Positions 3,795-25,198 of a stretch of DNA of 42,766 bases are shown piece after piece. Below the pieces are notes generated by a model. That model saw nothing but the letters and a program-made list of their open reading frames with translations, was not told where the DNA came from and did not search any database. Each line of letters begins with the position of its first letter. The stretch's first letter is position 1. Made by a program: the position numbers and the translations under genes. Source of the stretch: an uncultured Bdellovibrionales bacterium (GTDB lineage: Bacteria > Patescibacteriota > Minisyncoccia > Moranbacterales > UBA1568); the NCBI GenBank assembly GCA_964530135.1, contig CAZGXN010000008.1, positions 1-42,766 on the forward strand, read 5' to 3'.

Positions 3795-3823
3795 TTGACA
3801 ACGCTCTTTCAATTCCCTACCCT
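3795..3823 (+). promoter_or_regulatory. Putative sigma70 promoter for tRNA-Leu
   Basis: TTGACA-17 nt-TACCCT about 45 nt upstream of the tRNA. Confidence 0.5.
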
Positions 3824-3867
3824 TCATCTGCAGAGTGCCCCAGACTTTTCCAGAGAACAGATAAAAC

Positions 3868-3950
3868 GCCGCGGTGGTGGAATGGTAGACACACGGGACT
3901 CAAAATCCCGCGATAGCAATATCATGAGAGTTCGAGTCTCTCCCGCGGCA
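3868..3950 (+). tRNA. tRNA-Leu (anticodon CAA); CCA end not encoded
   Basis: Acceptor stem GCCGCGG/CCGCGGC plus A73; D-arm with GGTAGAC; anticodon stem CGGGA/TCCCG with loop CTCAAAA; long variable arm; T-arm GAGAG-TTCGAGT-CTCTC; followed by CCC rather than CCA. Confidence 0.97.
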
Positions 3951-3958
3951 CCCCCAAC

Positions 3959-3981
3959 CAGGCTCCAAGGCCTGTTTTTTT
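3959..3981 (+). terminator. Intrinsic terminator after tRNA-Leu
   Basis: CAGGC-TCCAAG-GCCTG followed by T7. Confidence 0.7.
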
Positions 3982-4007
3982 GTCGTTCGACCTATATTCC
4001 ACCATTC

Positions 4008-4520: not shown

Positions 4521-4522
4521 AC

Positions 4523-5377: not shown

Positions 5378-5382
5378 GTTTT

Positions 5383-6147: not shown

Positions 6148-6153
6148 AGAGGG

Positions 6154-6828: not shown

Positions 6829-6981
6829 GTTTTCGATGGTATGTGATAAAGGGTAATTATAACTACTCAAGTATATTACTCGACCGTAACACTCTTTGCT
6901 AGATCGCTGAGCTGATTGATGACGTCTCTACGCCCGACAATAGGGATCAAACCGACGGCGTCGGACCGAGCTTCCGTGTAT

Positions 6982-9520: not shown

Positions 9521-9619
9521 GGGAAAGAACCGAATTCACAAACCTCAACAGCCGCACCAAAAATTCTTTCATTTATCGATATTTGTTCTATACTACCAGC
9601 AGTACCTTAGGAGCAGGTC

Positions 9620-9796
9620 ATGCAGCAACATCCCCTTGGCATCAAAACCCCAAAGCGGCAACGATTCAAAGGCGATCTCCGGTATATCTGGGACGATCCT
9701 CGGCCAAAAATGTCGTTGCCATTTCATCCACCCTACCCCCGCCCCTTTCCCAGAGTAACTTTTGAGGAATTACGGCCAGTGGGACGCGATGTCTAA
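9620..9796 (+). CDS. Small Pro/Arg-rich hypothetical protein (58 aa), below the ORF-track cutoff
   Basis: AGGAG 6 nt before ATG; MQQHPLGIKTPKRQRFKGDLRYIWDDPRPKMSLPFHPPYPRPFPRVTFEELRPVGRDV; TATACT at 9589-9594 and its own terminator downstream. Confidence 0.65.
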   Translation: MQQHPLGIKTPKRQRFKGDLRYIWDDPRPKMSLPFHPPYPRPFPRVTFEELRPVGRDV

Positions 9797-9817
9797 TGAC
9801 ATCCAGACACAAAGCGT

Positions 9818-9853
9818 GGCGCCCCGCTTACCTCTTGGGCGCCTTTTCTTTTC
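9818..9853 (+). terminator. Intrinsic terminator after the 58-aa ORF
   Basis: GGCGCCC-12 nt-GGGCGCC followed by TTTTCTTTT. Confidence 0.75.
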
Positions 9854-9856
9854 TAC

Positions 9857-9891
9857 AAAAACAGCCGGCCACTTCAGAGCCGACTGTTTTT
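9857..9891. terminator. Bidirectional intrinsic terminator
   Basis: AAAAACAGCCGGC-CACTTCAGA-GCCGACTGTTTTT between convergent genes. Confidence 0.75.
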
Positions 9892-9906
9892 AGTTTTGAC
9901 CAAACG

Positions 9907-10878
9907 CTACTTCCGCCGGACTACTCTGTTGGCCACTACCCGAGCAAAGCGATAAGCCACCCAGATAAAAAATCCGTAGATAACGAGCACTGGTACACCG
10001 CTAATGAGTAGTGCCAGCAATGCACTCCCAACGGCAATACCGAAACGAGAAATGTCTGTGATTGACTGCTTGACTGCGTTGCCATCACGTACCGCATTGG
10101 TATCGACAACGACGCGCGGGTCCTCGGTAATACTGATAGTAAGAGATGCCATCGCTATCTGACCTACCAAAAGACGGTCTTCTGCCTCCATTCGCTCGAT
10201 ATCACTCCGCACCATCGAGAGGCGTTCTGTTACCTGGATAACATCATTCACTCCGGTCGCCCTCTCGAGGAGAGACATCAGCGCTGTCTCTTCTGCACGC
10301 TTGGTGTTCAGACGCGCGGTGAGATCAATGCTCTGTTCGGTTACATCTCCAGCATAGGCGTTTTCACTGACGACGGCTGAGGCAGCCCGCTTCACCTCTT
10401 CCAAAGTTACATCGAGACGGTCGGTCGGGACCCGCACCGAGAGCCAGGCTGTCTTCACTCCGGTCAACGGCTGCGCGATATGTACATTTTCAATAGAGCC
10501 ACCGACATTTTTGACTATCTCTTGGATCTTGTCTGTCGTCCACTTCAAACTTTGTGCCCGTAGATCCAGTGTCGCACCCTTGGCTATTTTCTGTCCTGAA
10601 GAGAGTGAAACAATAGTCGTCTGTGGCGGCATTGGCCGCGCCACACGATTCACCGCAGCCGGAGCGTTCATCATCCGACCGACCGTTGCGGTATCAGCGC
10701 GTTGATCCATCATCGGCATCGGAACGGGGGTCATATGCGACAGCCCATTCACCCGCTTCGGGAAAAATGCCAGTGTCTTCACGAGAAAAATAAAAAGTAC
10801 CGGAGCGAACAACATGAAGACGAGAAGGAATCCACCCATCCGCACATATTTTTGCCACTTCGGAGGTCGGGCTGCCAT
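9907..10878 (-). CDS. DUF4349-like membrane protein
   Basis: N-terminal TM helix; AWLSVRVP...DVTEQSIDLTARL...ERLSMVRSDIERMEA...MASLTISI pattern; C-terminal hydrophobic hairpin. Confidence 0.85.
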   Translation of the reverse strand: MAARPPKWQKYVRMGGFLLVFMLFAPVLFIFLVKTLAFFPKRVNGLSHMTPVPMPMMDQRADTATVGRMMNAPAAVNRVARPMPPQTTIVSLSSGQKIAKGATLDLRAQSLKWTTDKIQEIVKNVGGSIENVHIAQPLTGVKTAWLSVRVPTDRLDVTLEEVKRAASAVVSENAYAGDVTEQSIDLTARLNTKRAEETALMSLLERATGVNDVIQVTERLSMVRSDIERMEAEDRLLVGQIAMASLTISITEDPRVVVDTNAVRDGNAVKQSITDISRFGIAVGSALLALLISGVPVLVIYGFFIWVAYRFARVVANRVVRRK

Positions 10879-11009
10879 ATGATTTTGTTATGTATTACAA
10901 AAAAAACTAAAAGCACCAGAGTCCTTTTAGTGTACCCCTGGTTTTCTAAATGCGCCAGTACTCACCTCACATCTTTTATGTTTTTCAAATGTTTTGCACC
11001 GAAAAAGTG

Positions 11010-11467
11010 CTAGTGATCTTCACGAGAAATCACATTGGGCGCAACCCGACTACGATGTTTGCGAGCGATCTTGATCCGCGCCAGCTCTTTTTCAAGTGCG
11101 GCCGCAACCTGCGCATATTCTTCTTCTCCCATCGAGACACGCTCATTTCGAAGTGCTTCAGCTCGAACCCGTGCTTGTTCAGCGCGTTCCATATCGATAT
11201 CGATCGCCCGCTCGGCCGTATCTGCCAGTACCGACAGCTCATTTGCATCGAAGACCACAAAACCACCAGAAACCGCGAAACTTTCCGTCGAACCATCCGA
11301 ACTATGAACAATCACTTCACCTGCCCGGAGCGCGCCAATATACGACACATGTTCTGGAAGTATCGTTACATCTCCATCCGCGATAGGCAGTGTTACCCCA
11401 ACAGCCTCAACCAGCGCGACGGCGCGTTCGGGTGTTATCAGTTTCATTGAGAGGGTGTGTGGTGTCA

Positions 11468-11468
<1 letters not shown>
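11010..11468 (-). CDS. atpC: F1Fo ATP synthase epsilon subunit
   Basis: MKLITPER, GDVTILPEH, AVSGGF, VLADTAERAIDID; TGATG overlap with atpD. Confidence 0.95.
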
Positions 11469-12892
<1,424 letters not shown>

Positions 12893-12969
12893 TTATTTAA
12901 TGGATGGACTGCTTGCTGATGTATACTTGCTCACCTCTGGATGTTATGACGATCTCGAGGGATCTCTTG

Positions 12970-13860
12970 CTACCCTGTAACCGCCGCCATACCCGCTGAA
13001 AGCTCGGCTATCTCCTGTGTGATCTTTTGCTGACGAAGCTGATTATAGGCAAGCGTAAGATCATCAGCCATCTCTTTGGCAGCATCCGTAGCATTGCGCA
13101 TCGCGACCATCCGTGCGGCCTCCTGTGAAGCATTTGATTCCAGAACAGCATGATACAATTCCGCTTCAATCAGGCGAGGGATCAGCGCTTCAAGTACCAT
13201 TTCAGGCAACGGCTCGATGAGGCAGTCGCTGTGTGAATTTTCCTTCGGTTCAAGACCAATTTCGTCAAGCATTTTTTTAATGTCTTTCTCCCTAACCGGT
13301 AACAAGGCACGGACCTTCACCCGCTGTACCAGGGCCGAAACATAGTCCGTATAGATCATAACAACCCGATCAACGCGCCCAGCGAGAAATTCATCAAGGA
13401 TAACCCGGGTAACTGGCCGCATATCCGTAACACGCGGATACTCGAAGACGGCTGGGAATGAAGCAATGATCTCACCGCGAAGCCGGCGTACGGCCTGTTC
13501 ACCCTTTTTCCCGAGTGTGATAAAAGAGGCCTTACGATCAACATCTTCCGCTCGCACTTCTCGCAATTTTTTTAGGACTTGCGTGTTGAAAGAACCACAC
13601 AAACCACGGTTGGATGTGATCACCACATACAACTCACGGCGGATTGGTCGCTCGAGCAGCAAGGGATGTTTTTCATACTTGACGGCAGCAGCTACACTCT
13701 GCAGGACAAACAATGCCGCCTGCGCATAGGGTCGCAAAGCCAATGCTCGCTCAACCGCGCGACGCATCTTCACCGCCGAAATCATCTCCATGGCCCGGGT
13801 AATTTTTCCCGTTCCTCTCACGCCCTTGATTCGTCTTCGAATATCTTTTCCGCTCGGCAT
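12970..13860 (-). CDS. atpG: F1Fo ATP synthase gamma subunit
   Basis: KITRAMEMISAVK, SNRGLCGSFN, ARMVAMRNATD, YNQLRQQKITQEIAE. Confidence 0.98.
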   Translation of the reverse strand: MPSGKDIRRRIKGVRGTGKITRAMEMISAVKMRRAVERALALRPYAQAALFVLQSVAAAVKYEKHPLLLERPIRRELYVVITSNRGLCGSFNTQVLKKLREVRAEDVDRKASFITLGKKGEQAVRRLRGEIIASFPAVFEYPRVTDMRPVTRVILDEFLAGRVDRVVMIYTDYVSALVQRVKVRALLPVREKDIKKMLDEIGLEPKENSHSDCLIEPLPEMVLEALIPRLIEAELYHAVLESNASQEAARMVAMRNATDAAKEMADDLTLAYNQLRQQKITQEIAELSAGMAAVTG

Positions 13861-13931
13861 AGACTTTTACATCTGGAATGTGAATCTGAGATTTGAAAAC
13901 CAACCCTCAAGATCCAGAATTCTTATTTACC

Positions 13932-15431
13932 CTATACAACAAAACCTTTTTTGAAATCTTCGATATGCTTTTTGAGCATTGCCTCGACCGTTTCCGTTAG
14001 CGCCTTTTCGGTCCGAATCGCTTCAATGAGGCTTTGTCCATCACTTTCGAGCGAAAGCAAAAGCTCCTTTTCAAAACGACTGATAGCATCGACGGCAATG
14101 TCATCGAGGTGTCCGCGGGAAAGCGCATAGAGGAGGACGATCTCGCTCTCAACCGAGAGTGGGGCATACTGCGGCTGCTTCAAGATTTCAACCGCCCGCC
14201 GGCCACGTTCGATGAGCGAACGAGTCTTCTCATCGAGATCCGATCCGAACTGAGCAAACGATTCCATTTCACGAAATTGAGCCAGGTCAAGACGGAGTGT
14301 ACCGGCCACCTGTTTCATGGCCTTGATTTGCGCAGCGGAACCGACCCGAGAAACTGAAATACCAACATTCAATGCTGGACGAATACCTTTGTAGAAAAGA
14401 TCTGACTCCAGGTAAATCTGTCCATCCGTAATAGAGATAACGTTTGTCGGGATGTAGGCAGACACATCACCCGCCTGTGTCTCGATGATTGGCAGCGCTG
14501 TGATCGAACCACCCCCATGCTCCGCATTCAACTTTGCACTGCGTTCCAAGAGGCGAGAATGCACATAGAAAACATCGCCCGGGTACGCCTCACGCCCTGG
14601 TGGCCGCCGAAGGATGAGCGAGATCTGACGATAACTGACCGCATGTTTAGAGAGATCATCATACACAACCAGCACATCTTTACCCTGATCCAGGAAATAC
14701 TCACCCATCGCACAGCCAGCATACGGCGCGATATAGGACAGTGCCGCTGATTCAGAAACGCCCGCGACAACAATAGTGGTATAGTCCATCGCCCCAGCCC
14801 GGTCGAGTGCCGCCTTGATACGCGCAACTTTGGATTCTTTCTGGCCGATCGCGACATAGATACAGATCACCCCTTGCCCTTTTTGATTGATGATAGTATC
14901 GATAGCCACGGCTGTTTTCCCAGTCTGCCGATCACCGATGATGAGCTCACGCTGACCACGGCCAATCGGGATGAGGGCATCAATTGCTTTGATGCCTGTC
15001 TGAAGTGGCTGATGAACTGATTGTCGCGTAATAACACCCGGGGCGATCTTTTCGACAGGGTAATAGGTGGCGGCCTGAATCTCGCCTTTCCCATCAATCG
15101 CCTGACCAAGCGCATTCACAACGCGCCCGATGATACCCTCACCCACGGGAACGGAGAGAATGCGGCCTGTCGCTTTTACTCTCATTCCTTCGGAGAGCTC
15201 GCCCATCTCACCCATCACCATTACACCGACTTCACTCTCTTCCAGGTTGAGTGCGACACCCAATGTCCCATCCTCAAACTCCACCATCTCAGAAGCCATG
15301 ACTTCCGATAAACCAGCTACTCGAGCAACACCATCACCCACCTCGAGGATCGTGCCAACTGCTTCACGCTCCACCGCATGATGAAAACGCAAAAGTTCTT
15401 TTTTTAATTCTTCGATAAGTGGATTCGACAT
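13932..15431 (-). CDS. atpA: F1Fo ATP synthase alpha subunit
   Basis: [44 protein letters not shown]. Alternative GTG start at 15446 overlaps the atpH stop. Confidence 0.99.
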
Positions 15432-15442
15432 AGGTGTACGTG

Positions 15443-15841
15443 TCACAATGATTTACGGAGTTCTTTGAGCGCACGGGCGACGGTTCCATCGTAGCGGGTG
15501 TCGGCTGTATCGAGTCGGATGCCGCCAAGTAGTGTCGCATCTTCATGAAACTCGATCACAGCTTTGCGACCTGGCTTTTGGAGAAGCTGTGGCGCGAGCA
15601 GGGAGACTGACTGCCGCTCACTCGCCGGAAGCGGATGGGCACTCGTCGCGGTGATAGAAAGGACGCCTGACTCCTGTTCGGCATATACATCGAGCGCTCG
15701 CATAATTTTTCCAACACGACGGGCGTACCGTTTTCGCCGGAGCAAACCGACAAAGGCCTGAATGAGCTCTCTCCCCTGCAGCTCACCGGCACGCTGAAGT
15801 TCACCCGCGGCCCGAACTAATTGCGCTTCCGCGATTCTCAT
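15443..15841 (-). CDS. atpH: F1Fo ATP synthase delta subunit (short form)
   Basis: Lies between atpF and atpA; C-terminal TSAHPL...[10 protein letters not shown]...YDGTVARAL motif; only 132 aa. Confidence 0.88.
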
Positions 15842-15846
15842 AGCGC

Positions 15847-16341
15847 TTACGATTTCTTATTCAACACCGCCGTAACCAGCTGCGTATCCACCTTGGTATC
15901 AATCGTCTCTCCGAGTACGCGCTCAACGGCGGTTACGATAAGGCCCGAAAGCTCAGCCTTTGCCTCACGCACCAACCGCTCCTTTTCATCCGCCAGATGC
16001 GCATCTGTATCGGCCACCATTTTATCAATTCGTACTTTCGTTTCCTGAAGCATCATGGCATCGCGTTTTTTGGCAGCCTGTTCTGCCTGAAGCAAGATGT
16101 CTCGAGCTTCTTCGCGTGCAGCAGCCAAGAGTTGCTTCTCGGCCTCGACGCTCGACCGAAGTTTTTCTTGAGAGAGTGCCGCATCCTTCAGTCCCTGTTC
16201 AATTTTTTTCGTCCGAGCCTCAAGCGCCTTCAGAATAGGTTGATAAGCATATCGCCGCAGCACCCAGAGGAGGATAACAAAATTCAGCGCCTGAGCGATG
16301 AGGAGCTTCCAATCGATACCGAGCTTTGCGAGAACTTCCAT
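15847..16341 (-). CDS. atpF: Fo subunit b
   Basis: LIAQALNFVILLWVLRRYAYQPI TM helix followed by an Ala/Glu-rich coiled coil. Confidence 0.96.
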   Translation of the reverse strand: MEVLAKLGIDWKLLIAQALNFVILLWVLRRYAYQPILKALEARTKKIEQGLKDAALSQEKLRSSVEAEKQLLAAAREEARDILLQAEQAAKKRDAMMLQETKVRIDKMVADTDAHLADEKERLVREAKAELSGLIVTAVERVLGETIDTKVDTQLVTAVLNKKS

Positions 16342-16464
16342 GCAGAAAATTTAATATGTCATGAATCCAGTTTGGAATGCGATCGGGGCCTGATGTCATC
16401 GTATACCAACATATGATGACAAACTTCAAGCGGCCGAACCGCAAGAATCGGCCAAAAGAAGTTT

Positions 16465-16713
<249 letters not shown>

Positions 16714-16833
16714 TTAATCTCATCTCCCACTTTGGACACCAAACATCAAACCAACCATTTACTGTCTTTAGTCGCTCACATGATGAGTATGGACGCTCAT
16801 CTCGTTCACTTTGTTCGACAATAAAACGCCTCC

Positions 16834-16862
16834 AGTGTACCGTAAAATCGACAAATTGTCCA
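16834..16862 (-). promoter_or_regulatory. Putative internal promoter for atpE
   Basis: TGGACA-17 nt-TACACT in the 255-nt atpB-atpE spacer. Confidence 0.5.
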
Positions 16863-16947
16863 ATCTCTCACAAATCCAACAACACACCTCATTCATCATA
16901 CACCACTCGATACTGACCATGGGATCCAAATGAAGCTGGCCCAGATC

Positions 16948-17700
16948 TCAGTGTTCCGGTTCAACCGTCGCCATCTTCAGGAAAACAAGCGTGAGCATAG
17001 CAAAGACGACAGCCTGGATAAACCCAACAAAGATCTCAAGAAATAAGAACGGGAGCGGGAGAAAATACGGCACCAAATGGAGCATAACCGTCAAGAGTAC
17101 TTCTCCAGCAAACACATTGCCGAAAAGCCGAAAGGTAAACGAGATAATCTTGCCGATCTCGGAAACCAGTTCGAGTATACCGACCGCTGTACCGATACCA
17201 TACGGCTGTTGAAAGGGACTCACAAAAAACTTCTTCCCATATTTGACGAGACCCAGTGCCGCAATACCAGTAAACTGGATAGTGAAGACAACGATCAGTG
17301 AGAGGGCGAGCGTGAAGTTGAGATCGGCCGAAGTACTCCGCAGAAAAGGAATGATAGTCGCATGACTCGCATCCCCATGAGCCAGACCAATCGTCCCAAG
17401 TCCTGGCAGAAGTCCAGCCCAATTTGAAAAAAGGACAAAGAAAAAGATCGTGGCAATGAGCGGGAAAAATTTGAGCGCTTGTTTTCGATCTTGTGTTACT
17501 GACTCCACGAGATCGAGGAGTGCCTCAATAATTGTTTCCAAGATATTTTGGGCGCCGCGTGGCACTTCTTGCCAATGCTCAACGATACGGCGAGTGAAGA
17601 GCATCAGACCGCCTGAAACAATGGCACCAATGAGAAACGCATTCGTCACCGGAAAAGTGCCAAACGAAAACAGTTTTTCAGCAGCAATAGAAATTTCCAT
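16948..17700 (-). CDS. atpB: Fo subunit a
   Basis: PFLRSTSADLNFTLAL, SFTFRLFGNVFAGE (essential Arg), LEIFVGFIQAVVFAMLT. Confidence 0.97.
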   Translation of the reverse strand: MEISIAAEKLFSFGTFPVTNAFLIGAIVSGGLMLFTRRIVEHWQEVPRGAQNILETIIEALLDLVESVTQDRKQALKFFPLIATIFFFVLFSNWAGLLPGLGTIGLAHGDASHATIIPFLRSTSADLNFTLALSLIVVFTIQFTGIAALGLVKYGKKFFVSPFQQPYGIGTAVGILELVSEIGKIISFTFRLFGNVFAGEVLLTVMLHLVPYFLPLPFLFLEIFVGFIQAVVFAMLTLVFLKMATVEPEH

Positions 17701-17760
17701 ACGATATTCAAATCGTCAATCGAGAGAAGAGATAGAATGATCTTCTTTTTGAGCGATTCT

Positions 17761-17789
17761 ATGGTACAAGCTCCCTCATGTAAAGTCAA
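17761..17789 (-). promoter_or_regulatory. Putative sigma70 promoter of the atp operon
   Basis: TTGACT-17 nt-TACCAT, 60 nt upstream of atpB. Confidence 0.7.
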
Positions 17790-17795
17790 CGCGAA

Positions 17796-18071
17796 CTATT
17801 CCCCTTCACTTGCTGCCTTCGGTATTCCGCGGAGGATCTCCATCCGACGCATCTGATACCCCGCCCGCTCCTGAAGCTTCCTTGAGACTTCGCTTTCTAA
17901 AGCTTTCCGAGCCATTTTATCCGTCGCGACAGCCCGCCGCTGAAGCAGGTCCGTAAGCTCCTGCGAAAGTTTTTCTATATTGTCCTCCACCTCCGGAAGC
18001 AACATTTCCTCCAAGGCTTTTGGCTGCTTGGGTGTTTCTGGAGTTGGCGCAGTCGGAAATTGTTCAGACAT
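17796..18071 (-). CDS. Hypothetical protein (91 aa, helical)
   Basis: Fills the tatD-atpB gap; Pro-rich start followed by a coiled-coil-like charged region. Confidence 0.6.
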   Translation of the reverse strand: MSEQFPTAPTPETPKQPKALEEMLLPEVEDNIEKLSQELTDLLQRRAVATDKMARKALESEVSRKLQERAGYQMRRMEILRGIPKAASEGE

Positions 18072-18080
18072 AGGTATACT

Positions 18081-18947
18081 TTATGATAACCGAAAGAATA
18101 CTTTCTTGAAATTCTGATCGAGGGCTGCTGAGAGTTTTGAGAGAGAGACGCCCTTCAATCGACACAACGCCTCACCAATCGCAATCACAAAAGCGGGCTC
18201 ATTGCGCTCACCCCGTTTCTCTTGCGGTGCGAGAAAGGGGCAGTCTGTTTCAACAAAAAGACGCGCGAGCGGGATGAGCTTCACAGTCTCATGTAAATCA
18301 TCTTTTGTGCCGACTGCAGTTTTTTTCACTGGGTATGTGATATTGCCAGTAAAGGAAAAGAAAACGTTGGGAAGTGTCAAAAAACGCTGTGTTACCTCGG
18401 TATTACCCATATAGCAATGCAGGATGATCGTCCGCAGGTCTTTCCCAGCATGTGCCAAGATCTCGAGCATCTCTGCATACGCATCACGACAATGAACGAT
18501 GAGTGGCACATCCATCTCTTTCGCCAGTTCAATCTGTGCCAAGAACCCCTGCCGCTGTGCCGCCTTTGTCTCATCAGAAATGACCGCTGCTCCCCGTCCA
18601 ACAAATGACTGCTGCGAATCGATCACCGTCGGACGAACAAAGTAGTCGAGTCCACACTCCCCGATAGCGATCACTTTCCGCGACTTCTTGGCACACTCAC
18701 GGAGCGCCTCGATATCAACCGCGAGATCTTTCACATCATCCAATGTCCGGAATTCATGCGGATGAATACCGACACTCGCATACAATGCCGGATATTTTTC
18801 AGCCAATTCGACACACTGTTGACTCTCTTCAACCGTACAGCCAACCACAAGTATGTTTTCTACACCAGCGGCCTGAGCGCGCGCCAGTACCGCGTCGCGG
18901 TCCGTATCGTATGTGTCCCAATAGAGATGGGTATGGATATCATGCAT
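18081..18947 (-). CDS. tatD: TatD-family nuclease with an internal insertion
   Basis: DIHTHL, GIHPH, IGECGLDY, VHCR, LHCY, ETDCPFLAP; extra segment RPTVIDSQQSFVGRGAAVISD after GLDY. Confidence 0.93.
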   Translation of the reverse strand: MHDIHTHLYWDTYDTDRDAVLARAQAAGVENILVVGCTVEESQQCVELAEKYPALYASVGIHPHEFRTLDDVKDLAVDIEALRECAKKSRKVIAIGECGLDYFVRPTVIDSQQSFVGRGAAVISDETKAAQRQGFLAQIELAKEMDVPLIVHCRDAYAEMLEILAHAGKDLRTIILHCYMGNTEVTQRFLTLPNVFFSFTGNITYPVKKTAVGTKDDLHETVKLIPLARLFVETDCPFLAPQEKRGERNEPAFVIAIGEALCRLKGVSLSKLSAALDQNFKKVFFRLS

Positions 18948-19011
18948 GGATTTGCGATTTTATTCAGACATTGCTAAGGTGTTGGCATCTCTTCCTTCAG
19001 GAGATATTATC

Positions 19012-19107
19012 GTGTTGCAAAAGATTCCCAGTTGGCTTCTCGTTATTGGTTGCATCGCCGCCATAGCGATTGTCTTGCTCATAGGAGCCGGAGTGCTCCG
19101 TCTCTGA
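19012..19107 (+). CDS. Small single-TM protein (31 aa), unannotated
   Basis: AGGAG 8 nt before GTG; MLQKIPSWLLVIGCIAAIAIVLLIGAGVLRL; extended -10 TGCTAAGGT upstream; hairpin downstream. Confidence 0.7.
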   Translation: MLQKIPSWLLVIGCIAAIAIVLLIGAGVLRL

Positions 19108-19128
19108 GCCACTATTCACCCAACTGCC

Positions 19129-19161
19129 AGCGGGCAACCGAAGATCCGGTCGCCCGCTTTT
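19129..19161. terminator. Terminator hairpin between the 31-aa ORF and metG
   Basis: AGCGGGCAACCG-AAGATC-CGGTCGCCCGCT then TTT. Confidence 0.65.
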
Positions 19162-20580
19162 CTATTTGATCCGCTGAAAGAGCGGTTCGACCTTCCCCGT
19201 CTTCAATGCCGTCTCAATTTTTTCGGAGGTTTCCGGAAGGAATGGTTTCAAGATAAAGCTAATGCCCGCAAGTGTTTTCAGGTATCCCTTCATGACTTGC
19301 TCAAACTTTTCCTCGTTTGTTTTTGCCAACTCCCAAGGCTTGTCGTTATCAATAACCTGATTTGTAACTCTGATGTACGACCAGATTTGATTCAAAGCAT
19401 CTGCCAGCATACACTGCTCTAGATATCCATTCACATCATTCCACATATTGCTACCGGAAAAATCAAGCTCTAATTTTTCACTCAGATTCTCTGAAAGCTT
19501 CAGTACGCGTGAAACCAAGTTCCCGAGACCATTGGCGAGATCAGCATTGTATTTCTCGGTCATGCGTTCCAGGGTGAGATCGACATCGTCGCCAAATGTC
19601 CCCGCGCTCATGAGGAGATAGCGCGTGCCGTCCACACCAAACCGCTCGAGCATATCGCCGATCGCGATCACATTGCCGAGCGTCTTACTCATCTTCTTCC
19701 CGCCCGACAGGATATGGCCATGTGTGAAGAGAAGTTGTTGCGTCGGCAACCCCAGATGCATGAGTATGACAGGCCAGATAGTGGCGTGCACCCGCAAAAT
19801 ATCTTTGCCGATGAATTGAATATTAGCCGGCCATTCCATTGGAACTGTCTTCACATCACCCTCCCAACCCAGCACCGTGAGATAATTCAAGAAAGCGTCT
19901 ACCCAGACATAGGTCGTATGGGCTTCATCAAATGGAAGTGGTATTCCCCACTGGACATTCTTCCGTGAGATAGAGATATCCGTCAGCGGCTCCCCCCTCA
20001 AGAAAGAGAGGATTTCGTTCCGGTACTGCTCCGGCGCAATGCGCAGTTCATCCGTCTCGATCCTCCGGATGAGTTCTGGCTGAAGCTCCGTCATCTTCAT
20101 CAGATAACTCTCTTCCTTCATAAATTCGGGTGCGCGATTGTGATCCGGACACTTTCCATCCACCAAATCATCCGCTGTCTTGAACTGCTCGCAGCCGACA
20201 CAGTAGAGACCCTCATAAAAACCTTTGTAGATGAGTCCGCGCTCGTAAAAATCAGCGAGAACTTTCTGCACAGCCCGCTTGTGCGCTGGCTCAGTTGTCC
20301 GGATGAATTTCGTATAGTCGATATTGAGCGCTTTCCAGAGTTTTTGAAACTCTCCTGCCAGCGCATCGACAAAGACTGCCGGCTCTTTTCCTTCTTCTTC
20401 AGCCTTCTTGGCGATCTTCATCCCATGTTCGTCCGTTCCGGTCGAGAAAAAGACCTCCTTGCCCTGCATTCGTTTAAAGCGTGCCAAACAGTCCGCCGCA
20501 ACCGTCGTATAGGCGTGGCCGATATGCGGCGGGCCGTTCACATAATAAATCGGCGTCGTGATGAAAAATGGCTTACTCAT
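19162..20580 (-). CDS. metG: Methionine--tRNA ligase (short form without the C-terminal tRNA-binding domain)
   Basis: ITTPIYYVNGPPHIGHAY, GTDEHG, single knuckle CVGCE...CPDH, YVWVDA, IGKDI, KMSKTLGN; 472 aa. Confidence 0.97.
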   Translation of the reverse strand: MSKPFFITTPIYYVNGPPHIGHAYTTVAADCLARFKRMQGKEVFFSTGTDEHGMKIAKKAEEEGKEPAVFVDALAGEFQKLWKALNIDYTKFIRTTEPAHKRAVQKVLADFYERGLIYKGFYEGLYCVGCEQFKTADDLVDGKCPDHNRAPEFMKEESYLMKMTELQPELIRRIETDELRIAPEQYRNEILSFLRGEPLTDISISRKNVQWGIPLPFDEAHTTYVWVDAFLNYLTVLGWEGDVKTVPMEWPANIQFIGKDILRVHATIWPVILMHLGLPTQQLLFTHGHILSGGKKMSKTLGNVIAIGDMLERFGVDGTRYLLMSAGTFGDDVDLTLERMTEKYNADLANGLGNLVSRVLKLSENLSEKLELDFSGSNMWNDVNGYLEQCMLADALNQIWSYIRVTNQVIDNDKPWELAKTNEEKFEQVMKGYLKTLAGISFILKPFLPETSEKIETALKTGKVEPLFQRIK

Positions 20581-20601
20581 AGTATCTTCAGTATATCACT
20601 A

Positions 20602-20630
20602 TTGACTTTTACATTAAGAAGGTGTATAAT
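20602..20630 (+). promoter_or_regulatory. Near-consensus sigma70 promoter of the 56-aa ORF
   Basis: TTGACT-17 nt-TATAAT. Confidence 0.8.
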
Positions 20631-20671
20631 AGCACAGTTAGCAGTACCTTTTTTCAACCCAAGGAGAATAC

Positions 20672-20842
20672 ATGGATACCTGGATGAAACGGCATGAGCC
20701 CAAAGTGTTCTGGGGAGGCCTCGCCCTCTTCATCTTCTATGTCTACTTCATAGCCTCGGTGGAGTGTCTCAATTACAACAACTGTTGGATCGCTAGTGCT
20801 GATTTAGCGGATGCCGTGTTGCGATTTTTTGGGACGAAATAA
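20672..20842 (+). CDS. Small membrane protein (56 aa) with a C-x5-C pair, unannotated
   Basis: AAGGAG 5 nt before ATG; MDTWMKRHEPKVFWGGLALFIFYVYFIASVECLNYNNCWIASADLADAVLRFFGTK; own promoter and terminator. Confidence 0.78.
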   Translation: MDTWMKRHEPKVFWGGLALFIFYVYFIASVECLNYNNCWIASADLADAVLRFFGTK

Positions 20843-20877
20843 CCGGCCCCTATCTCCCGAAGCTAGTCGCTAATCCC

Positions 20878-20910
20878 AAAGCCCGATATGCAACCGCGTA
20901 CTCGGGCTTT
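20878..20910. terminator. Bidirectional terminator
   Basis: AAAGCCCGA-15 nt-TCGGGCTTT between convergent genes. Confidence 0.7.
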
Positions 20911-20927
20911 AAAAATTTTATCTACTT

Positions 20928-21614
20928 TCAATATACAATTACCGAAAACTCTCCCTTCACCTTTTCTGGATGCTCGGTGAAGTAGGCAAGTCCCTCCGCC
21001 ACACTTCCTCGAATAATTTCCTCGTACATTTTTGTTAACTCACGACCGATGATAATGTGCTTTTCTGATGCCAGCGATTGAAGCAATTCCAGATTCTTCA
21101 TCAGCCGATGCGGTGATTCATAATACATGACCGGCAGTTCACTCGCGGCGACGCGTTTGAAATAGGTTTCGCGACCTTTCTTGTGTGGCGGGAAGCCCAG
21201 AAAGAGAAACTCTCGCATATCGACACCAGCGACCGAGACGAGTGCTGCGACGGCCGACACACCCGGAATGGGGATGACCGATATGCCTCGCTGGATGGCG
21301 AACGAGACGAGGATGTTGCCCGGATCCGATAGTCCTGGCGTCCCCGCATCGGTCACAACGGCGACATTTTCTCCAGCACCGATACGATCGAGAAAACCGT
21401 CGAGTTTTTTCACCTCAGTATGTTCATGCGCGGAGTACACTGGCACAGTGATTTCGTACTTCGTGAGAAGCTTCTTCGTCACGCGGGTATCCTCGGCCAG
21501 GATGAAGTCGACGGACTTCAGCGTCTCGAGTGCCCGCAGCGTGATGTCGCCAAGATTGCCGATTGGTGTACCGACAATGTAGAGCGTACCCGTTGCTTGA
21601 TTTGGTTGATTCAT
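20928..21614 (-). CDS. rsmI: 16S rRNA (C1402 2'-O)-methyltransferase
   Basis: LYIVGTPIGNLGDITLRAL, AEDTR, VTDAGTPGLSDPG, YESPHR, RELTK, KGEF. Start placed at MNQPN; the ORF track starts at 21632. Confidence 0.96.
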   Translation of the reverse strand: MNQPNQATGTLYIVGTPIGNLGDITLRALETLKSVDFILAEDTRVTKKLLTKYEITVPVYSAHEHTEVKKLDGFLDRIGAGENVAVVTDAGTPGLSDPGNILVSFAIQRGISVIPIPGVSAVAALVSVAGVDMREFLFLGFPPHKKGRETYFKRVAASELPVMYYESPHRLMKNLELLQSLASEKHIIIGRELTKMYEEIIRGSVAEGLAYFTEHPEKVKGEFSVIVY

Positions 21615-21684
21615 AAGAATTGACTCTAGCATACATCCATGCTATTTCAAGTATACCCAATACCGGACAGCAAAGGAGCTTATC

Positions 21685-21945
21685 ATGACCGCCGTGTCCC
21701 TTCCAATCAAAGTCGTGCCCTTTGGAGAAGTCCAAACGAAAGGGATGTTCATCCTTGCGAACGAGGCATCGCTTGCCACCATTCCCCTGCAGTACCCCGA
21801 CATGTTGCCTATCGTCATGAGAAAGATCGGCCCCGACCCAGAATTCAACTGGGTACCTGTTTTCGACATCCACATCAACAACGGCCGCGAACGCTTGACC
21901 GGGGGTAGGCTTGCTGACGACCAACTCTGCATCCTGGTCCGGTAG
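21685..21945 (+). CDS. Hypothetical protein (86 aa)
   Basis: AAAGGAG 6 nt before ATG; beta-rich soluble-looking sequence; followed by a terminator. Confidence 0.7.
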   Translation: MTAVSLPIKVVPFGEVQTKGMFILANEASLATIPLQYPDMLPIVMRKIGPDPEFNWVPVFDIHINNGRERLTGGRLADDQLCILVR

Positions 21946-21967
21946 AGACCAGTGCCCCCGCCTCACT

Positions 21968-22003
21968 GATCCCCTTGGCATAGCCCGGGGGTCGTTTTTT
22001 TTT
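21968..22003 (+). terminator. Intrinsic terminator after the 86-aa ORF
   Basis: GATCCCC...GGGGGTC imperfect stem followed by T9. Confidence 0.6.
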
Positions 22004-23270
22004 ACAGTCGTACCAATTTCTCCAATTTCTTCTTGTCGGCTTTTGGTCCGATGACGGCGAGATTGAGACGGTTATTTGTGAAGATTGATTGCGCGACTCG
22101 GAGCACATCGTCCGCCGTCACCTTATCGATGAGCTTAGCATACTCTTTCGGCAAGACGATTTTTCCTTTCAATGTTTCTTGATTGACGAGATACTCCACC
22201 ACATCATCCGATCCCTCGAGTCCCATGGCAATCTTGCCTTTAATGTATTCCTTCGCCTTTGAAATTTCCTCGGGTCCAACTTTCTCGGCCGCGATTTTCT
22301 TGTACTCGTCGAGGATGACTTCGATGGTCTTCTCCAGATTCTCGTGCTCGATGCCACACTGCGTCGCGAGATAGCCCACATCATGATAACTTTCAGCCGA
22401 GGTGTGGACATTATAGGCGAGGCCACGCCGCTCACGCACTGAGAGAAAAAGACGCGATGACATACCACCGCCGAGAATAGTCGAAAGAACGGCAACTGCG
22501 TACCGATCCGGATGATTCATATCAAATGTCCGCACGCCGAGTAACATGTGGGTCTGATCGGTTTTCTTGTGCTGGAAAAACACTCCCGGTACGGACTGCT
22601 TGTCAGTCGCTTTCTTGAAGACTGGCTTCTCACCGGTACGGATATGCGCGAAGCGCTTCTCGATCTCGCGTTTCATTTTCTTGGGATCCATTTTCCCGGC
22701 AACGCCGACGACAACATTACCCGAGACATAGCCACGAGCGAGATACTTCATGAAGTCCGTGCGCTTGAAGCTCTTGATATTGGACTTCGGTCCGACGATC
22801 TCCCAACCGAGGGGGGTGTCGCCATAGAGGTGCCTCTCCCATAGGTCATTGATGTGACGCATCGGCATGTCTTCGTACATGTTGATCTCTTGGAGGATAG
22901 CACCACGCTCACGGTCGATTTCCTCCTGCTCAATTTTGGCATTCATGAAGATATCGGAAACGACATCAAGGGCAATATCGGCATGTCGTGCCTCGACCTT
23001 GGCATAGTAGCCAGTCCGATCCTTGCCCGTGTACGCATTGTATTCCGCTCCGACCGCATCCAGTTCCTTACTGATATCGAGTGCAGCCGGACGCTTGGTC
23101 GTCCCCTTGAAGAACATATGCTCGAGGAAATGGGCGAGGCCATTTTCCTTGCGCGTCTCATAGCGGCTGCCGACTCCAGTCATGACGAGCACAGTCACCG
23201 TCTCCGTCTCGTGCATGGGGGCGAGAATGATGCGCAGCCCATTCTTCAAAGTGTGTTTCTTGTAGTTCAT
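22002..23270 (-). CDS. M16 family zinc peptidase (pitrilysin/insulinase-like)
   Basis: GLAHFLEHM (HxxEH), NAYT, ERGAILQE, LGGGMSSRLFLSVRERRGLAY. Confidence 0.95.
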   Translation of the reverse strand: MNYKKHTLKNGLRIILAPMHETETVTVLVMTGVGSRYETRKENGLAHFLEHMFFKGTTKRPAALDISKELDAVGAEYNAYTGKDRTGYYAKVEARHADIALDVVSDIFMNAKIEQEEIDRERGAILQEINMYEDMPMRHINDLWERHLYGDTPLGWEIVGPKSNIKSFKRTDFMKYLARGYVSGNVVVGVAGKMDPKKMKREIEKRFAHIRTGEKPVFKKATDKQSVPGVFFQHKKTDQTHMLLGVRTFDMNHPDRYAVAVLSTILGGGMSSRLFLSVRERRGLAYNVHTSAESYHDVGYLATQCGIEHENLEKTIEVILDEYKKIAAEKVGPEEISKAKEYIKGKIAMGLEGSDDVVEYLVNQETLKGKIVLPKEYAKLIDKVTADDVLRVAQSIFTNNRLNLAVIGPKADKKKLEKLVRL

Positions 23271-23281
23271 GCGTTTCTTGG

Positions 23282-24700
23282 TTATTTCAGGTTAGTCTGG
23301 AAAAATGCGGCGAGGTCTTCGATCTTCATTCTTTCTTGCTTCATTGTGTCGCGGTCACGAACGGTAACGGTGCCTTCGAGTTCCTTGTTTTCACCGAGGG
23401 TGTCGAAGTCAATGGTAATGCAGTACGGCGTGCCGATCTCGTCCTGACGGCGATAGCGCTTCCCCACATTGCCATTGTCATCAAATTCGACGCGGAGCGT
23501 CTGACGGAGCAGGTCATATACCTCACGCGCCTTGGCGACAAGCTCGGGCTTGTTCTTCATGAGTGGAAACACCGCCACCTGTACCGGCGCGAGCTTCTTT
23601 GGAAGCTTCAGGACAATGCGCGTATCATCTTCAGCGAGTTTCTCTTCCGTATACGCATCAGTGAGAACAGCGAGGAATGTGCGCTCGAGGCCGACAGAGG
23701 TCTCCACGATCCACGGCATGAATTTCTCATTCGTTACTGGATCGCGATAAGAAAGATCGACGCCCGAAAACTTTGAGTGCTGGATCAAATCATAATCGCT
23801 CCGATTATGCACACCCTCGAGCTCTTTGAATCCGAACGGGAAATTGTATTCAATATCCCATGCGGCCTTAGCATAGAACACCAGGTTTTCATGTTGATGC
23901 CAGCGGAGGTTCTCGGCCTTGAGGCCAAGATCAAGGTAGTACTGGAAACGCTTGGCTCGCCACTCCTCATACGCAGTTGCCGCTTCCTCAGGACGGACAA
24001 AGTACTGCATCTCCATCTGTTCAAACTCGCGCTTGCGGAAGATGAACTGCCGGGCCGTGATCTCATTCCGAAACGCCTTGCCGATCTGCGCGATGCCGAA
24101 CGGCACCTTCACCCGCGAAGAATCCAACACATTCTTGAAATTCACATAAATCCCCTGACAAGTCTCGCCGCGCAGATAGGTTGGTTCCGCCGTCCAATCG
24201 CCAGTAAAATTTCCCAGATTCGACTGCACGAGGAGATTGAAACTCTTCGCTTCGGTGAAATTACTCTTACCACACTTCGGACATTTCACTTTGTCTTTGT
24301 GTTCAGAAAAAAGCGCGTTGATCTCGGCCTCGGTCATCTTCTCATCGGCAAAGACATCAACGGCTTCGAGGAGATGATCAACTCGGACGCGGGTGTGGCA
24401 CTCGCGACACTCAGCAAGCGGGTCAGAAAATCCACCCACGTGTCCTGATGCCTCCCAGACTTTCGGGTGCATGAAGATCGCCGCATCGAGACCAACGATA
24501 TTGTCATGATCATAGACCATCGCCTTCCACCAGGCATCGCGGATATTCCGAGCGAGCTCCACACCGTACGGACCAAAATCATAGACGGCCGCAAATCCAC
24601 CGTAGATTTCCGATGATGGAAACACAAACCCGCGGCGCTTGGCAAGCGAGATGATTTTCTCCATCAGACCCTCTGATTTTCCTGACTTATTTTCTGGCAT
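23282..24700 (-). CDS. glyS: Glycine--tRNA ligase, homodimeric (eukaryote/archaea-like) type
   Basis: KRRGFVFPSSEIYGG, YLRGETCQGI, AQIGKAFRNEIT, REFEQME, ETSVGLER, IGKRYRRQDEIG-like anticodon-binding motif (VGKRYRRQDEIGTP). Confidence 0.97.
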   Translation of the reverse strand: MPENKSGKSEGLMEKIISLAKRRGFVFPSSEIYGGFAAVYDFGPYGVELARNIRDAWWKAMVYDHDNIVGLDAAIFMHPKVWEASGHVGGFSDPLAECRECHTRVRVDHLLEAVDVFADEKMTEAEINALFSEHKDKVKCPKCGKSNFTEAKSFNLLVQSNLGNFTGDWTAEPTYLRGETCQGIYVNFKNVLDSSRVKVPFGIAQIGKAFRNEITARQFIFRKREFEQMEMQYFVRPEEAATAYEEWRAKRFQYYLDLGLKAENLRWHQHENLVFYAKAAWDIEYNFPFGFKELEGVHNRSDYDLIQHSKFSGVDLSYRDPVTNEKFMPWIVETSVGLERTFLAVLTDAYTEEKLAEDDTRIVLKLPKKLAPVQVAVFPLMKNKPELVAKAREVYDLLRQTLRVEFDDNGNVGKRYRRQDEIGTPYCITIDFDTLGENKELEGTVTVRDRDTMKQERMKIEDLAAFFQTNLK

Positions 24701-24706
24701 ATTCTC

Positions 24707-24735
24707 TTGACGATTTTCATTACAAACAGTAGAGT
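24707..24735 (+). promoter_or_regulatory. Putative sigma70 promoter of the zinc-ribbon ORF
   Basis: TTGACG-17 nt-TAGAGT. Confidence 0.65.
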
Positions 24736-24842
24736 AATCGAGCTCTTTAACAATCCAACCCCAAAACGATTCTTAGCCCATCCTAGCCTGTAAAGGCTAT
24801 TTCTTCAACCCAACACGGTTACCGAACAAAGGAGTCATAATA

Positions 24843-25046
24843 ATGAAGTATCTGGGGATCGGCATCGCCGCCGGTATCGCGCTCGCCCTCTTGTATGGTT
24901 ACTCTCTCGCCCGACGCCTGAGCCCAACCTGTCCAAAATGTGGAAGTCAAAAAACCGATACCCTTTGCTTCAGCTTCCATCGCACCCTCTATGGGTGTCG
25001 GGACTGCGGATACGAATGGAGGATGAGTGATAGTGATCCAGATTGA
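24843..25046 (+). CDS. Small membrane-anchored zinc-ribbon protein (67 aa)
   Basis: AAAGGAG upstream; N-terminal hydrophobic helix, then CPKC-x18-CRDC. Confidence 0.8.
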   Translation: MKYLGIGIAAGIALALLYGYSLARRLSPTCPKCGSQKTDTLCFSFHRTLYGCRDCGYEWRMSDSDPD

Positions 25047-25198
25047 TGATCAAAGAAAACAGGTACTCACCAAACTGCGCATACTTTCTCTCGTATGACT
25101 CGTGATCACCCATCACATCCTCTGATTTGTACAAGCCAGGTCGTCCCAAATATCAGAATCCGAACACGCGCGAAGCAATAATTTGCCGCGCGCTTTTT

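What the first reader, a model, noticed from the sequence alone, without database searches (positions are those of the whole stretch)
9620..25046. Five stand-alone antisense mini-genes interleaved among core genes
Seen: in an otherwise minus-strand block, five plus-strand ORFs of 31-86 aa (9620, 19012, 20672, 21685, 24843) each occupy one intergenic gap divergent from a core gene (leuS, tatD, metG, rsmI, glyS). All have AGGAG at 5-8 nt; most have a recognisable sigma70 promoter and terminator. Three are below the 60-aa cutoff and three are membrane-anchored. Inference: a dispersed accessory micro-proteome, possibly inserted one cassette at a time at divergent promoter regions without integrase, and relevant to an episymbiotic lifestyle.
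Basis: partly seen in the sequence, partly recalled or inferred. Interest (0 to 1): 0.62.

Follow-up and report, generated by a model that had tools for sequence, protein, structure and literature searches.

The report
Five real antisense small-protein genes
Five tiny genes on the opposite strand between housekeeping genes of a Moranbacteria (candidate phyla radiation) genome are real; four were inherited within the genus rather than inserted, and their functions are unknown.

Summary
Five plus-strand ORFs of 58, 31, 56, 86 and 67 aa each fill one gap in a minus-strand core-gene array (leuS, tatD, metG, rsmI, glyS). Each has AGGAG 5-8 nt before its start and a plus-strand hairpin with a U-tract after its stop. 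Chance gives about 0.01 such ORF per gap, about 1e-10 for all five.

Four are conserved protein genes:
- s3 (20672-20842) belongs to an undescribed family: a TM helix followed by S-x2-C-x4-5-C-x-[FIL]-A-[NS]. It is single-copy, always lies between rsmI and metG, and is confined to one Moranbacteria family.
- s1, s2 and s5 have orthologs in the same gaps in 3, 1 and 2 other species of the genus.
- All four show the coding pattern of substitution (position 2 > 1 > 3; pN/pS 0.3-0.5 with synonymous sites saturated).
- s4 is found only in this genome, but its composition is coding-like.

The cassette-insertion idea is not supported. There are no flanking repeats, G+C is native, the positions are syntenic, and carriers are scattered over the species tree. 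This points to ancestral genes that were lost repeatedly; where they are lost the gaps shrink to 3-44 nt. Functions are unknown. These are new members of a known kind: lineage-restricted intergenic microproteins.

The parts
9586..9855 (+). s1 transcription unit. It has a -10 box TATACT (9586-9591), AGGAG 6 nt before the ATG at 9620, a 58-aa soluble, basic, Pro-rich ORF (9620-9796), and its own terminator GGCGCC..GGCGCC followed by U-rich sequence (about 9818-9855). It is divergent from leuS.
   Evidence: Orthologs lie in the same gap in G008 (L193 2890-3066), G014 (L196 4181-4372) and G003. The -10 box, SD and terminator are conserved. Codon-position identity is .58-.66/.64-.72/.29-.38.
9857..9891 (.). 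Bidirectional hairpin AAAAACAGCCGGC..GCCGACTGTTTTT. It probably terminates the convergent DUF4349 gene and backs up the s1 terminator.
   Evidence: inverted repeat I1; -14.5 kcal/mol, z -3.65.
18953..19161 (+). s2 transcription unit. It has a weak conserved promoter TTGCGA-17-TAAGGT, AGGAG 8 nt before the GTG at 19012, a 31-aa single-TM peptide (19012-19107), and a plus-strand terminator (19129-19158 plus UUUU). It is divergent from tatD.
   Evidence: -20.8 kcal/mol, z -4.2. The ortholog in G008 (L185 9723-9827) keeps the GTG start and is 52% identical (phmmer E 2.7e-7). Codon-position identity is .58/.87/.29.
20602..20918 (+). s3 transcription unit. It has the promoter TTGACT-17-(TG)TATAAT (20602-20630), a conserved 5'-UTR motif GCAGTACCTTTTTTCAAC (20641-20658), AGGAG 5 nt before the ATG at 20672, and a 56-aa ORF (20672-20842) with a TM helix then SVEC-LNYNN-C-WIASADLADAV. 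A hairpin AAAGCCCGA..TCGGGCTTT follows (20878-20910). It is divergent from metG and convergent with rsmI.
   Evidence: The AF2 model has a TM helix at 9-35 and a helix at 43-52, with pLDDT 69. pN/pS is 0.3-0.5.
21622..22003 (+). s4 unit. It has AGGAG 6 nt before the ATG at 21685, an 86-aa soluble ORF (21685-21945), and a weak stem followed by U9 (about 21968-22003). A possible -35 TTGACT (21622-27) overlaps the rsmI -10 on the other strand. It is divergent from rsmI.
   Evidence: No homolog was found anywhere. GC1/2/3 of .58/.37/.72 is coding-like. G009 has a counterpart of the same size, SD and position, but the similarity is not significant.
24707..25200 (+). s5 unit. It has the promoter TTGACG-17-TAGAGT (24707-24735), a conserved 5' UTR of about 100 nt with a small hairpin (24784-24799), AGGAG 8 nt before the ATG at 24843, and a 67-aa ORF (24843-25046) with an N-terminal TM helix and a CPKCG...CRDCG zinc ribbon. 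About 110 nt of spacer precede the terminator GCGCGCG..CGCGCGC plus U7 (25167-25200). It is divergent from glyS.
   Evidence: Orthologs lie in the same gap in G014 (L188 5651-5863; E 4.8e-15) and G010 (L182 5550-5939). The promoter and UTR are conserved. Codon-position identity is .61/.73/.36.

Best explanation
The five ORFs are genuine small-protein genes of a Candidatus Moranbacteria genome (888 kb), each with its own transcription unit. Each sits head-to-head with a housekeeping gene, sharing a 65-155 nt divergent promoter region, and ends at its own or a shared terminator just before the next housekeeping gene's stop.

Shown: s1, s2, s3 and s5 are vertically inherited, fast-evolving genes under purifying selection, restricted to the genus (s3 to the family). 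They have been lost repeatedly in sister species, and where they are lost the gap collapses so that the flanking core genes abut. s4 is an orphan seen only in this genome.

Inferred from sequence only, how the products work:
- s3 is an N-in membrane-anchored protein, or possibly one cleaved by signal peptidase. It would display a disulfide-closed C-x5-C loop and a short amphipathic helix on the cell surface, and its consensus promoter suggests high expression.
- s2 is a single-TM microprotein, of the sort that modulates a larger membrane complex.
- s5 tethers a cytoplasmic four-Cys zinc ribbon to the membrane, which would suit an adaptor or regulator.
- s1 is a soluble, basic, Pro-rich cytoplasmic peptide with an invariant PFHPPY motif.
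- s4 is a soluble protein of unknown fold.
For: - Start signals and ORFs are far beyond chance.
- Plus-strand-oriented terminators follow all five.
- A gene caller had already called s1, s3, s4 and s5 in public assemblies.
- s3 family: a profile built from 4 members finds an independent fifth at E 1e-9. There are 51 clusters at 50% identity among 1.84 billion proteins, with invariant Ser and two Cys. It occurs in 27 of 301 genomes of the order, all in one family and always as a single copy. In all 12 loci that were fetched it lies between rsmI and metG.
- s1, s2 and s5 orthologs are syntenic, and their SD, start codon, -10 box and terminator are conserved.
- Codon-position identity follows 2 > 1 > 3, and pN/pS is 0.3-0.5 with saturated pS. 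Flanking core genes give 0.07-0.42.
- Carriers sit in both sub-clades of the core-protein tree.
- Where a small gene is absent, the gap is 3-44 nt.
- There are no flanking repeats, and G+C is native.
- TM-grade hydropathy in s2, s3 and s5; CPxCG knuckles in s5.
Against:
- Codon-model scores are low for real genes. s1, s4 and s5 are at or below the 6th percentile of real gene segments, although all five are within the top 13% of spurious ORFs.
- s4 has no homolog. Its similarity to the G009 counterpart is not significant (P 0.09), and its predicted structure is uninformative (pLDDT 38).
- Promoters for s1, s2 and s4 are weak.
- Synonymous sites are saturated, so omega cannot be estimated precisely.
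- All functional assignments are inferred from sequence features alone.
Confidence: 0.8

Rival explanations
1. Each mini-gene is a self-contained promoter-ORF-terminator cassette, acquired horizontally and inserted independently into a divergent promoter region without an integrase.
For: Presence across species is patchy. s4 is unique to this genome, and its GC3 of 0.72 exceeds that of the flanking genes, 0.52-0.64. The same gaps in relatives hold different genes, so they are variable sites.
Against: Four of the five have orthologs at exactly the same site and orientation in species from both sub-clades. s3 is fixed between rsmI and metG across five genera. There are no flanking repeats, no paralogs in this genome, and no hits to phage or defence libraries. 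Promoter regions are shared with the core gene and are conserved.
Confidence: 0.08
2. The gaps are cradles of de novo gene birth. Divergent transcription from the core genes' promoter regions exposes non-coding DNA, which then acquires an SD and an ORF. The five genes would represent graded ages: s4 species level, s1, s2 and s5 genus level, s3 family level.
For: All five start 65-155 nt from a divergent core-gene start. Taxonomic restriction is graded. Codon-model scores lie between spurious and real. None resembles any known family. In the metG|tatD and M16|rsmI gaps, relatives carry different antisense SD-led TM peptides.
Against: No non-coding ancestral state was found that aligns to any of the ORFs. 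Rapid divergence of older genes would give the same pattern. s4 and the G009 counterpart both have gene-like GC1/GC2. Published reviews conclude that durable de novo genes are rare in bacteria (PMC12315717, PMC13753837; abstracts only).
Confidence: 0.15
3. The plus-strand units are regulatory antisense or divergent RNAs, or type I toxin-antitoxin loci (notably s2). On this view the ORFs are incidental, or toxic peptides held in check by an antisense RNA.
For: s2 is a 31-aa hydrophobic peptide in an intergenic gap, like Hok, TisB and Ldr. The 5' UTRs of s3 and s5 are more conserved than the coding third positions.
Against: Amino-acid-level conservation with the coding pattern 2 > 1 > 3. Strong SD sequences lie at optimal spacing. 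5' UTRs are short for s1-s4, with no long structured leader. Rfam finds nothing in the gaps. The conserved UTR stretches coincide with -35-like TTGAAn boxes of the divergent core genes on the other strand.
Confidence: 0.05

Closest known systems
Lineage-restricted intergenic small ORFs (microproteins), as catalogued in Enterobacteriaceae ('The Cryptic Bacterial Microproteome', PMC11188072; abstract only)
   Same: Stand-alone ORFs of 15-90 codons in intergenic DNA. They have narrow taxonomic range, many are membrane peptides, they evolve fast, and annotation pipelines often miss or under-call them.
   Different: Here they lie in a streamlined CPR genome of 0.9 Mb. All are antisense to a housekeeping array, five are clustered in 16 kb, each has a perfect AGGAG, and four keep the same position across species.
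Small single-TM regulators of membrane complexes (AcrZ, KdpF, MgtS, CydX; from my own knowledge)
   Same: s2, and possibly s3 and s5, are 30-70 aa proteins with one TM helix and little else.
   Different: There is no sequence similarity. They are not encoded next to a membrane complex that they might serve. No partner is known.
Type I toxins (Hok/Sok, TisB/IstR, Ldr/Rdl; from my own knowledge)
   Same: s2 is a short hydrophobic peptide encoded in an intergenic gap.
   Different: No long folded 5' UTR and no detectable antisense RNA gene. The gene is conserved as a single-copy syntenic ortholog, whereas these toxin loci are typically multicopy and mobile.
Generic zinc-ribbon modules (Pfam Zn_ribbon_IS1595, Zn_Ribbon_YjdM; NCBIfam VdcD, FmdB-type CxxC_CxxC_SSSS)
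   Same: s5 has two CxxC knuckles (CPKCG, CRDCG) 18 residues apart.
   Different: All hits fall below the curated cut-offs. s5 also adds an N-terminal TM anchor.
Pediocin-like (class IIa) bacteriocins, with a YGNGV-x-C-x4-C disulfide loop (from my own knowledge; a lead only)
   Same: The conserved part of s3 is a short extracytoplasmic C-x4-5-C loop followed by an amphipathic, Trp-containing stretch.
   Different: s3 has no YGNGV box, no double-glycine leader, and no immunity or ABC-transporter genes nearby. Its hydrophobic segment looks like an anchor, because the -1 residue before the motif is often V, I, F or M.

Membership tests
s3 family (undescribed; defined here by alignments A1 and A2) | One N-terminal TM helix followed by S-x2-C-x4-5-C-x-[FILV]-[AS]-[NS]-x2-[LWF]-x-[ND]-[WA] | tested here: met
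   The window protein scores E 1.3e-18 against the profile. The invariant Ser29, Cys32 and Cys38 are present.
s3 family (undescribed; defined here by alignments A1 and A2) | A single-copy gene between rsmI and metG, on the opposite strand | tested here: met
   this holds in all 12 fetched loci and in the window.
Any curated protein family (Pfam, NCBIfam, PHROGs, PADLOC) | A score at or above the curated cut-off | tested here: not met
   s1-s4 give nothing. s5 gives only sub-threshold generic zinc-ribbon hits.
Integron-type or other mobile gene cassettes | Flanking recombination sites or repeats, and presence at varying genomic sites | tested here: not met
   No flanking repeats. Orthologs sit at fixed syntenic sites. 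No paralogs in this genome.
Type I toxin-antitoxin | A hydrophobic peptide under 60 aa | tested here: met
   s2 is 31 aa, with a Kyte-Doolittle 19-residue window mean of 2.89.
Type I toxin-antitoxin | An overlapping or adjacent antisense sRNA, and a long structured 5' UTR that hides the SD | tested here: inconclusive
   The 5' UTR is only about 25 nt if the conserved -10 box is used. There is no Rfam hit. RNA data were unavailable.
Class IIa (pediocin-like) bacteriocins | A YGNGV box before C-x4-C, and a double-glycine leader | tested here: not met
   Both are absent from all 29 aligned family members.
Protein-coding gene under purifying selection | Codon-position conservation 2 > 1 > 3 and pN/pS below 1 between orthologs | tested here: met
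   Met for s1, s2, s3 and s5. Not testable for s4, which has no ortholog.

The most novel reading that the evidence does not exclude
In this Moranbacteria genus, the promoter-bearing gaps between co-directional housekeeping genes act as a standing nursery for new antisense microprotein genes. On this reading s4 (species level), s1, s2 and s5 (genus level) and s3 (family level, with a surface-exposed Cys loop) are successive age classes of genes born from divergent-promoter transcripts. Some would be retained because they serve the cell envelope or host contact of an episymbiont.
Probability: 0.15. Interest if true: 0.65.

Novelty: new member of a known kind. Interest (0 to 1): 0.4.

Why it matters
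CPR bacteria have tiny genomes in which every retained gene is presumed to matter, yet much of their lineage-specific content is unannotated small proteins. This locus offers four conserved microprotein families that are not in Pfam or NCBIfam, each with defined promoter, SD and terminator. One of them (s3) is a probably surface-exposed Cys-loop protein fixed next to metG across a whole family. The locus also shows gain, loss and turnover of small genes inside an otherwise rigid housekeeping array, which bears on the debate over where bacterial ORFans come from. It also shows that the usual 60-aa cut-offs would miss three of the five genes: s2 was not in the 15-billion-protein collection at all.

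Tried and rejected
- Strain-level dN/dS: the other assemblies that carry s4 are 100% identical over 6.3 kb, so they are uninformative.
- Single-sequence searches: s1, s4 and s5 found only themselves among 5.8 billion proteins, and s4 had no hit in 40 relatives. The s1, s2 and s5 orthologs turned up only after the syntenic gaps of same-genus genomes were read directly.
- G009 as closest relative: I first took G009 as closest because its MetRS is 74% identical. Other core genes show that G010, G012 and G008 are closer, so metG misleads.
- Relic hypothesis for s4: I tested whether the s4 gap is a remnant of the same-strand genes that fill this gap in relatives (AI-2E permease and others). tblastx and blastn found nothing except a 32-nt rsmI promoter match to G009.
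- s4 structure: prediction from the single sequence gave pLDDT 38, so no fold search was run.
- Shared 5'-UTR words: AGCAGTACCTT is shared by s1 and s3, and TTCAACCCAA by s3 and s5. I considered them as cassette signatures. They are better explained as conserved promoter or UTR elements: the first is invariant in s3 orthologs, and the second is the complement of a TTGAAn -35-like box facing the core gene.
- The AAGCCCG..CGGGCTT hairpin after s3 in five genomes was judged to be an ordinary terminator stem, not a structured RNA.
Full report
**What is in the sequence**

The window is contig C8 of an 888-kb, 21-contig genome. Titles of the nearest MetRS relatives place it in Candidatus Moranbacteria/Moraniibacteriota (Parcubacteria, CPR). 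From 6982 to 28276 every long gene is on the minus strand. Pfam identifies LeuRS, a DUF4349 protein, the F-ATPase operon, TatD, MetRS, an RsmI-type methylase, an M16 peptidase, class II GlyRS and TGT.

- s1: 9620-9796, 58 aa
- s2: 19012-19107, GTG start, 31 aa
- s3: 20672-20842, 56 aa
- s4: 21685-21945, 86 aa
- s5: 24843-25046, 67 aa

Each lies in one gap of 214-498 nt. Each begins 65-155 nt from the start of a divergent core gene and has AGGAG 5-8 nt upstream of its start.

**Is it more than chance?**

Yes.
- In first-order Markov shuffles of each gap, an AGGAG-spacer-start-ORF of at least 30 codons appears on the plus strand with probability 0.007-0.014. The joint probability for all five gaps is about 7.5e-11. 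None occurs on the minus strand of these gaps.
- Genome-wide there are only 35 AGGAG-led intergenic ORFs of 25-99 aa. Thirteen have opposite-strand genes on both sides, and five of those thirteen are these, inside 1.8% of the genome.
- All five are followed by hairpins whose U-tract is on the plus strand. This marks plus-strand transcription units rather than terminators of the convergent core genes.
- Promoter evidence is uneven. s3 has TTGACT-17-TATAAT with an extended TG. s5 has TTGACG-17-TAGAGT. s1 has TATACT and s2 has TTGCGA-17-TAAGGT, and both are conserved in relatives. s4 has none that passes the scan.

**Are they genes?**

Codon-model scores are intermediate. They fall in the top 0.8-13% of 4,523 spurious ORFs, but mostly in the lower tail of real gene segments. 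Comparative data settle the question for four of the five. Synteny tgt-glyS-M16-rsmI-metG-tatD-atp-DUF4349-leuS is conserved across Moranbacteria, so the gaps can be compared directly.

*s3.*
- Antisense SD-led ORFs in the rsmI|metG gap of L131, L012 and L093 share a post-TM motif with s3.
- A profile of those four found an independent member in G011 at E 1e-9.
- A profile of five (A1) found 51 clusters at 50% identity among 1.84 billion proteins, all 53-127 aa. The consensus is ...YT..SADCATGGSCTFANGDLANWLF, with an invariant Ser and two invariant Cys.
- In 301 genomes of the order the family is present in 27. All 27 are in the window's own family (5 genera), and the gene is always single copy.
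- In all 12 fetched loci it lies between rsmI and metG.
- No Pfam or NCBIfam model matches.
- Against G008 and G012 orthologs (61-64% identity), codon-position identity is .73-.75/.84-.86/.50-.61 and pN/pS is 0.3-0.5.
- The promoter, a 5'-UTR stretch GCAGTACCTTTTTTCAAC and the terminator stem are conserved.

*s1.* Orthologs lie in the same DUF4349|leuS gap of G008, G014 and G003. MQQH-L-IKT, QR, W-D and PFHPPY are invariant. The -10 box, AGGAG and the plus-strand terminator are conserved, and codon-position identity is .58-.66/.64-.72/.29-.38.

*s2.* G008 has a 34-aa ortholog in the same metG|tatD gap. It keeps the GTG start and is 52% identical (E 2.7e-7), with position identity .58/.87/.29.

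*s5.* G014 (70 aa, E 4.8e-15) and G010 (129 aa) have orthologs in the tgt|glyS gap. The TM segment and both CxxC knuckles are kept, and position identity is .61/.73/.36.

Flanking core genes between the same genome pairs give pN/pS of 0.07-0.42, with pS saturated at 0.63-0.75. The small genes are therefore selected as proteins, and they evolve about as fast as the fastest neighbour (tatD) or faster.

*s4.* This is the exception.
- There is no homolog in 40 relatives, in 5.8 billion clustered proteins, in six-frame translations of about 190 related loci, or by tblastx.
- Its GC1/GC2/GC3 of .58/.37/.72 is gene-like in the first two positions; real genes average .58/.40 and spurious ORFs .47/.50. 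Its third position is unusually G+C-rich.
- G009 has an 82-aa antisense ORF at the same site with the same AGGAG-6-ATG, a terminator and a similar composition of .61/.41/.66. However, the protein similarity is not significant (27% identity, shuffle P 0.09).
- I rate s4 as probably a real, young or fast-evolving gene.

**Inserted cassettes or inherited genes?**

- A tree from six core proteins puts the window next to G010 and G012, with G001/G011 and G003/G008/G007 as the sister sub-clade.
- Carriers of s1 (G000, G008, G003, G014) and of s2 (G000, G008) span both sub-clades. s5 is in G000, G010 and G014. s3 is nearly universal in the genus and occurs in four other genera.
- Where a small gene is missing, the gap is usually closed: metG|tatD is 3 nt in G010 and G002, and M16|rsmI is 13-44 nt in G010 and G008 and about zero (one search reports -1 nt) in G014. 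In other cases the gap is filled by unrelated genes.
- No repeats flank the genes, G+C is like the neighbours, and there are no paralogs in this genome.
- The simplest reading is ancestral genes at fixed sites, lost repeatedly. This contradicts one-at-a-time insertion.
- It stays open whether the genes first arose de novo from divergent-promoter transcripts. The graded age classes, and the different antisense TM peptides that occupy the same gaps in G009, G004, G013, G014 and L122, are compatible with that idea but do not prove it.

**How they probably work (inference only)**

- s3: basic residues come before the TM helix and the conserved motif follows it. That implies an N-in, C-out orientation with a disulfide-closed loop and a short helix outside (AF2 on the family alignment: helices 9-35 and 43-52, pLDDT 69). 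Many members have an (A/L)-S-A before the D/N-C that resembles a signal-peptidase site. Others have V, I, F or M at the -1 position, so an uncleaved anchor is more likely. The near-consensus promoter suggests high expression.
- s5: RR follows the TM helix, which places the zinc ribbon in the cytoplasm.
- s2: this peptide is little more than a TM helix.
- s1: this peptide is basic and Pro-rich, with no hydrophobic segment.
- No partner or phenotype can be assigned to any of them.

**Comparison with what is known**

These are lineage-restricted intergenic microproteins, a recognised class (PMC11188072; reviews PMC12315717 and PMC10723866; abstracts only). None belongs to a curated family. Membership in type I toxin, mobile-cassette and pediocin-like families was tested and was either not met or inconclusive.

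**Verdict**

These are new members of a known kind, of moderate interest.

Noticed in passing
window 19162-20580 (metG): The window's MetRS is 73-75% identical to those of G009, L122 and L131 and 69-70% to those of other Moranbacteria genera. It is only 44-49% identical to the MetRS of its closest relatives by every other core gene (G010, G012, G008 and others; 75-93% for glyS, M16, atpB and tgt). This suggests metG was replaced in situ by a xenolog in one of the lineages, inside unchanged synteny.
   Followed up: partly
L185 (G008) 1606-3945; L190 (G003) 2352-4816; L182 (G010) 3954-6045; L188 (G014) 4396-6007: In sister species the tgt|glyS gap is a 1.6-2.5 kb island on the antisense strand. 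It holds tandem paralogs of proteins of about 113-133 aa, 146-163 aa multi-TM proteins and, in G010 and G014, the s5 ortholog. All have AGGAG-type SDs. The window keeps only s5 plus about 110 nt of spacer.
   Followed up: partly
window 20641-20658 and 9598-9608: The s3 5' UTR contains GCAGTACCTTTTTTCAAC. This stretch is essentially invariant in the G008, G012 and G003 orthologs, while the 10 nt before it and the synonymous sites vary. The 11-mer AGCAGTACCTT occurs only twice in the genome, and the second copy is in the s1 5' UTR. Its function is unknown. It may be an operator, or an upstream element of the divergent metG promoter.
   Followed up: partly
window 21614-21650 and 20580-20600: Core genes here seem to have very short leaders or none. 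For rsmI, TTGAAA-16-TAGAGT is followed 8 nt later by the ATG at 21614 (the gene caller's start). For metG, TATACT is followed 9 nt later by the ATG. At their longest starts, only 65 of 522 long genes have any SD-like motif.
   Followed up: no
L090 (G009) 9178-9459; L189 (G013) 11305-11643: G009 and G013 lack the s3 family. In the same rsmI|metG gap they carry a different antisense 93-112 aa protein that ends in a TM helix and R-P-(N/T)-P-F-Q.
   Followed up: no
L090 11459-11605; L189 9523-9657; L184 11418-11534: A second family of antisense TM peptides occupies the metG|tatD gap in the G009/G013/G004 clade. They are 38-48 aa, with a TM helix followed by PW...GEAL..M.R.
   Followed up: no
L188 (G014) 6008-7348: GlyRS of G014 is only 56% identical to the window's, against 83-93% in the other species of the genus. 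This probably explains why G014 is misplaced in the concatenated tree.
   Followed up: no
window 17796-18071 (-): A 91-aa minus-strand ORF just upstream of atpB has no Pfam hit. A gene caller has called it. It may be an AtpI/AtpZ-like accessory subunit.
   Followed up: no
window 1-42766: GC skew is negative in almost every 1-kb bin. The minus-strand core genes are therefore probably on the leading strand, and the five small genes would be head-on to replication.
   Followed up: no
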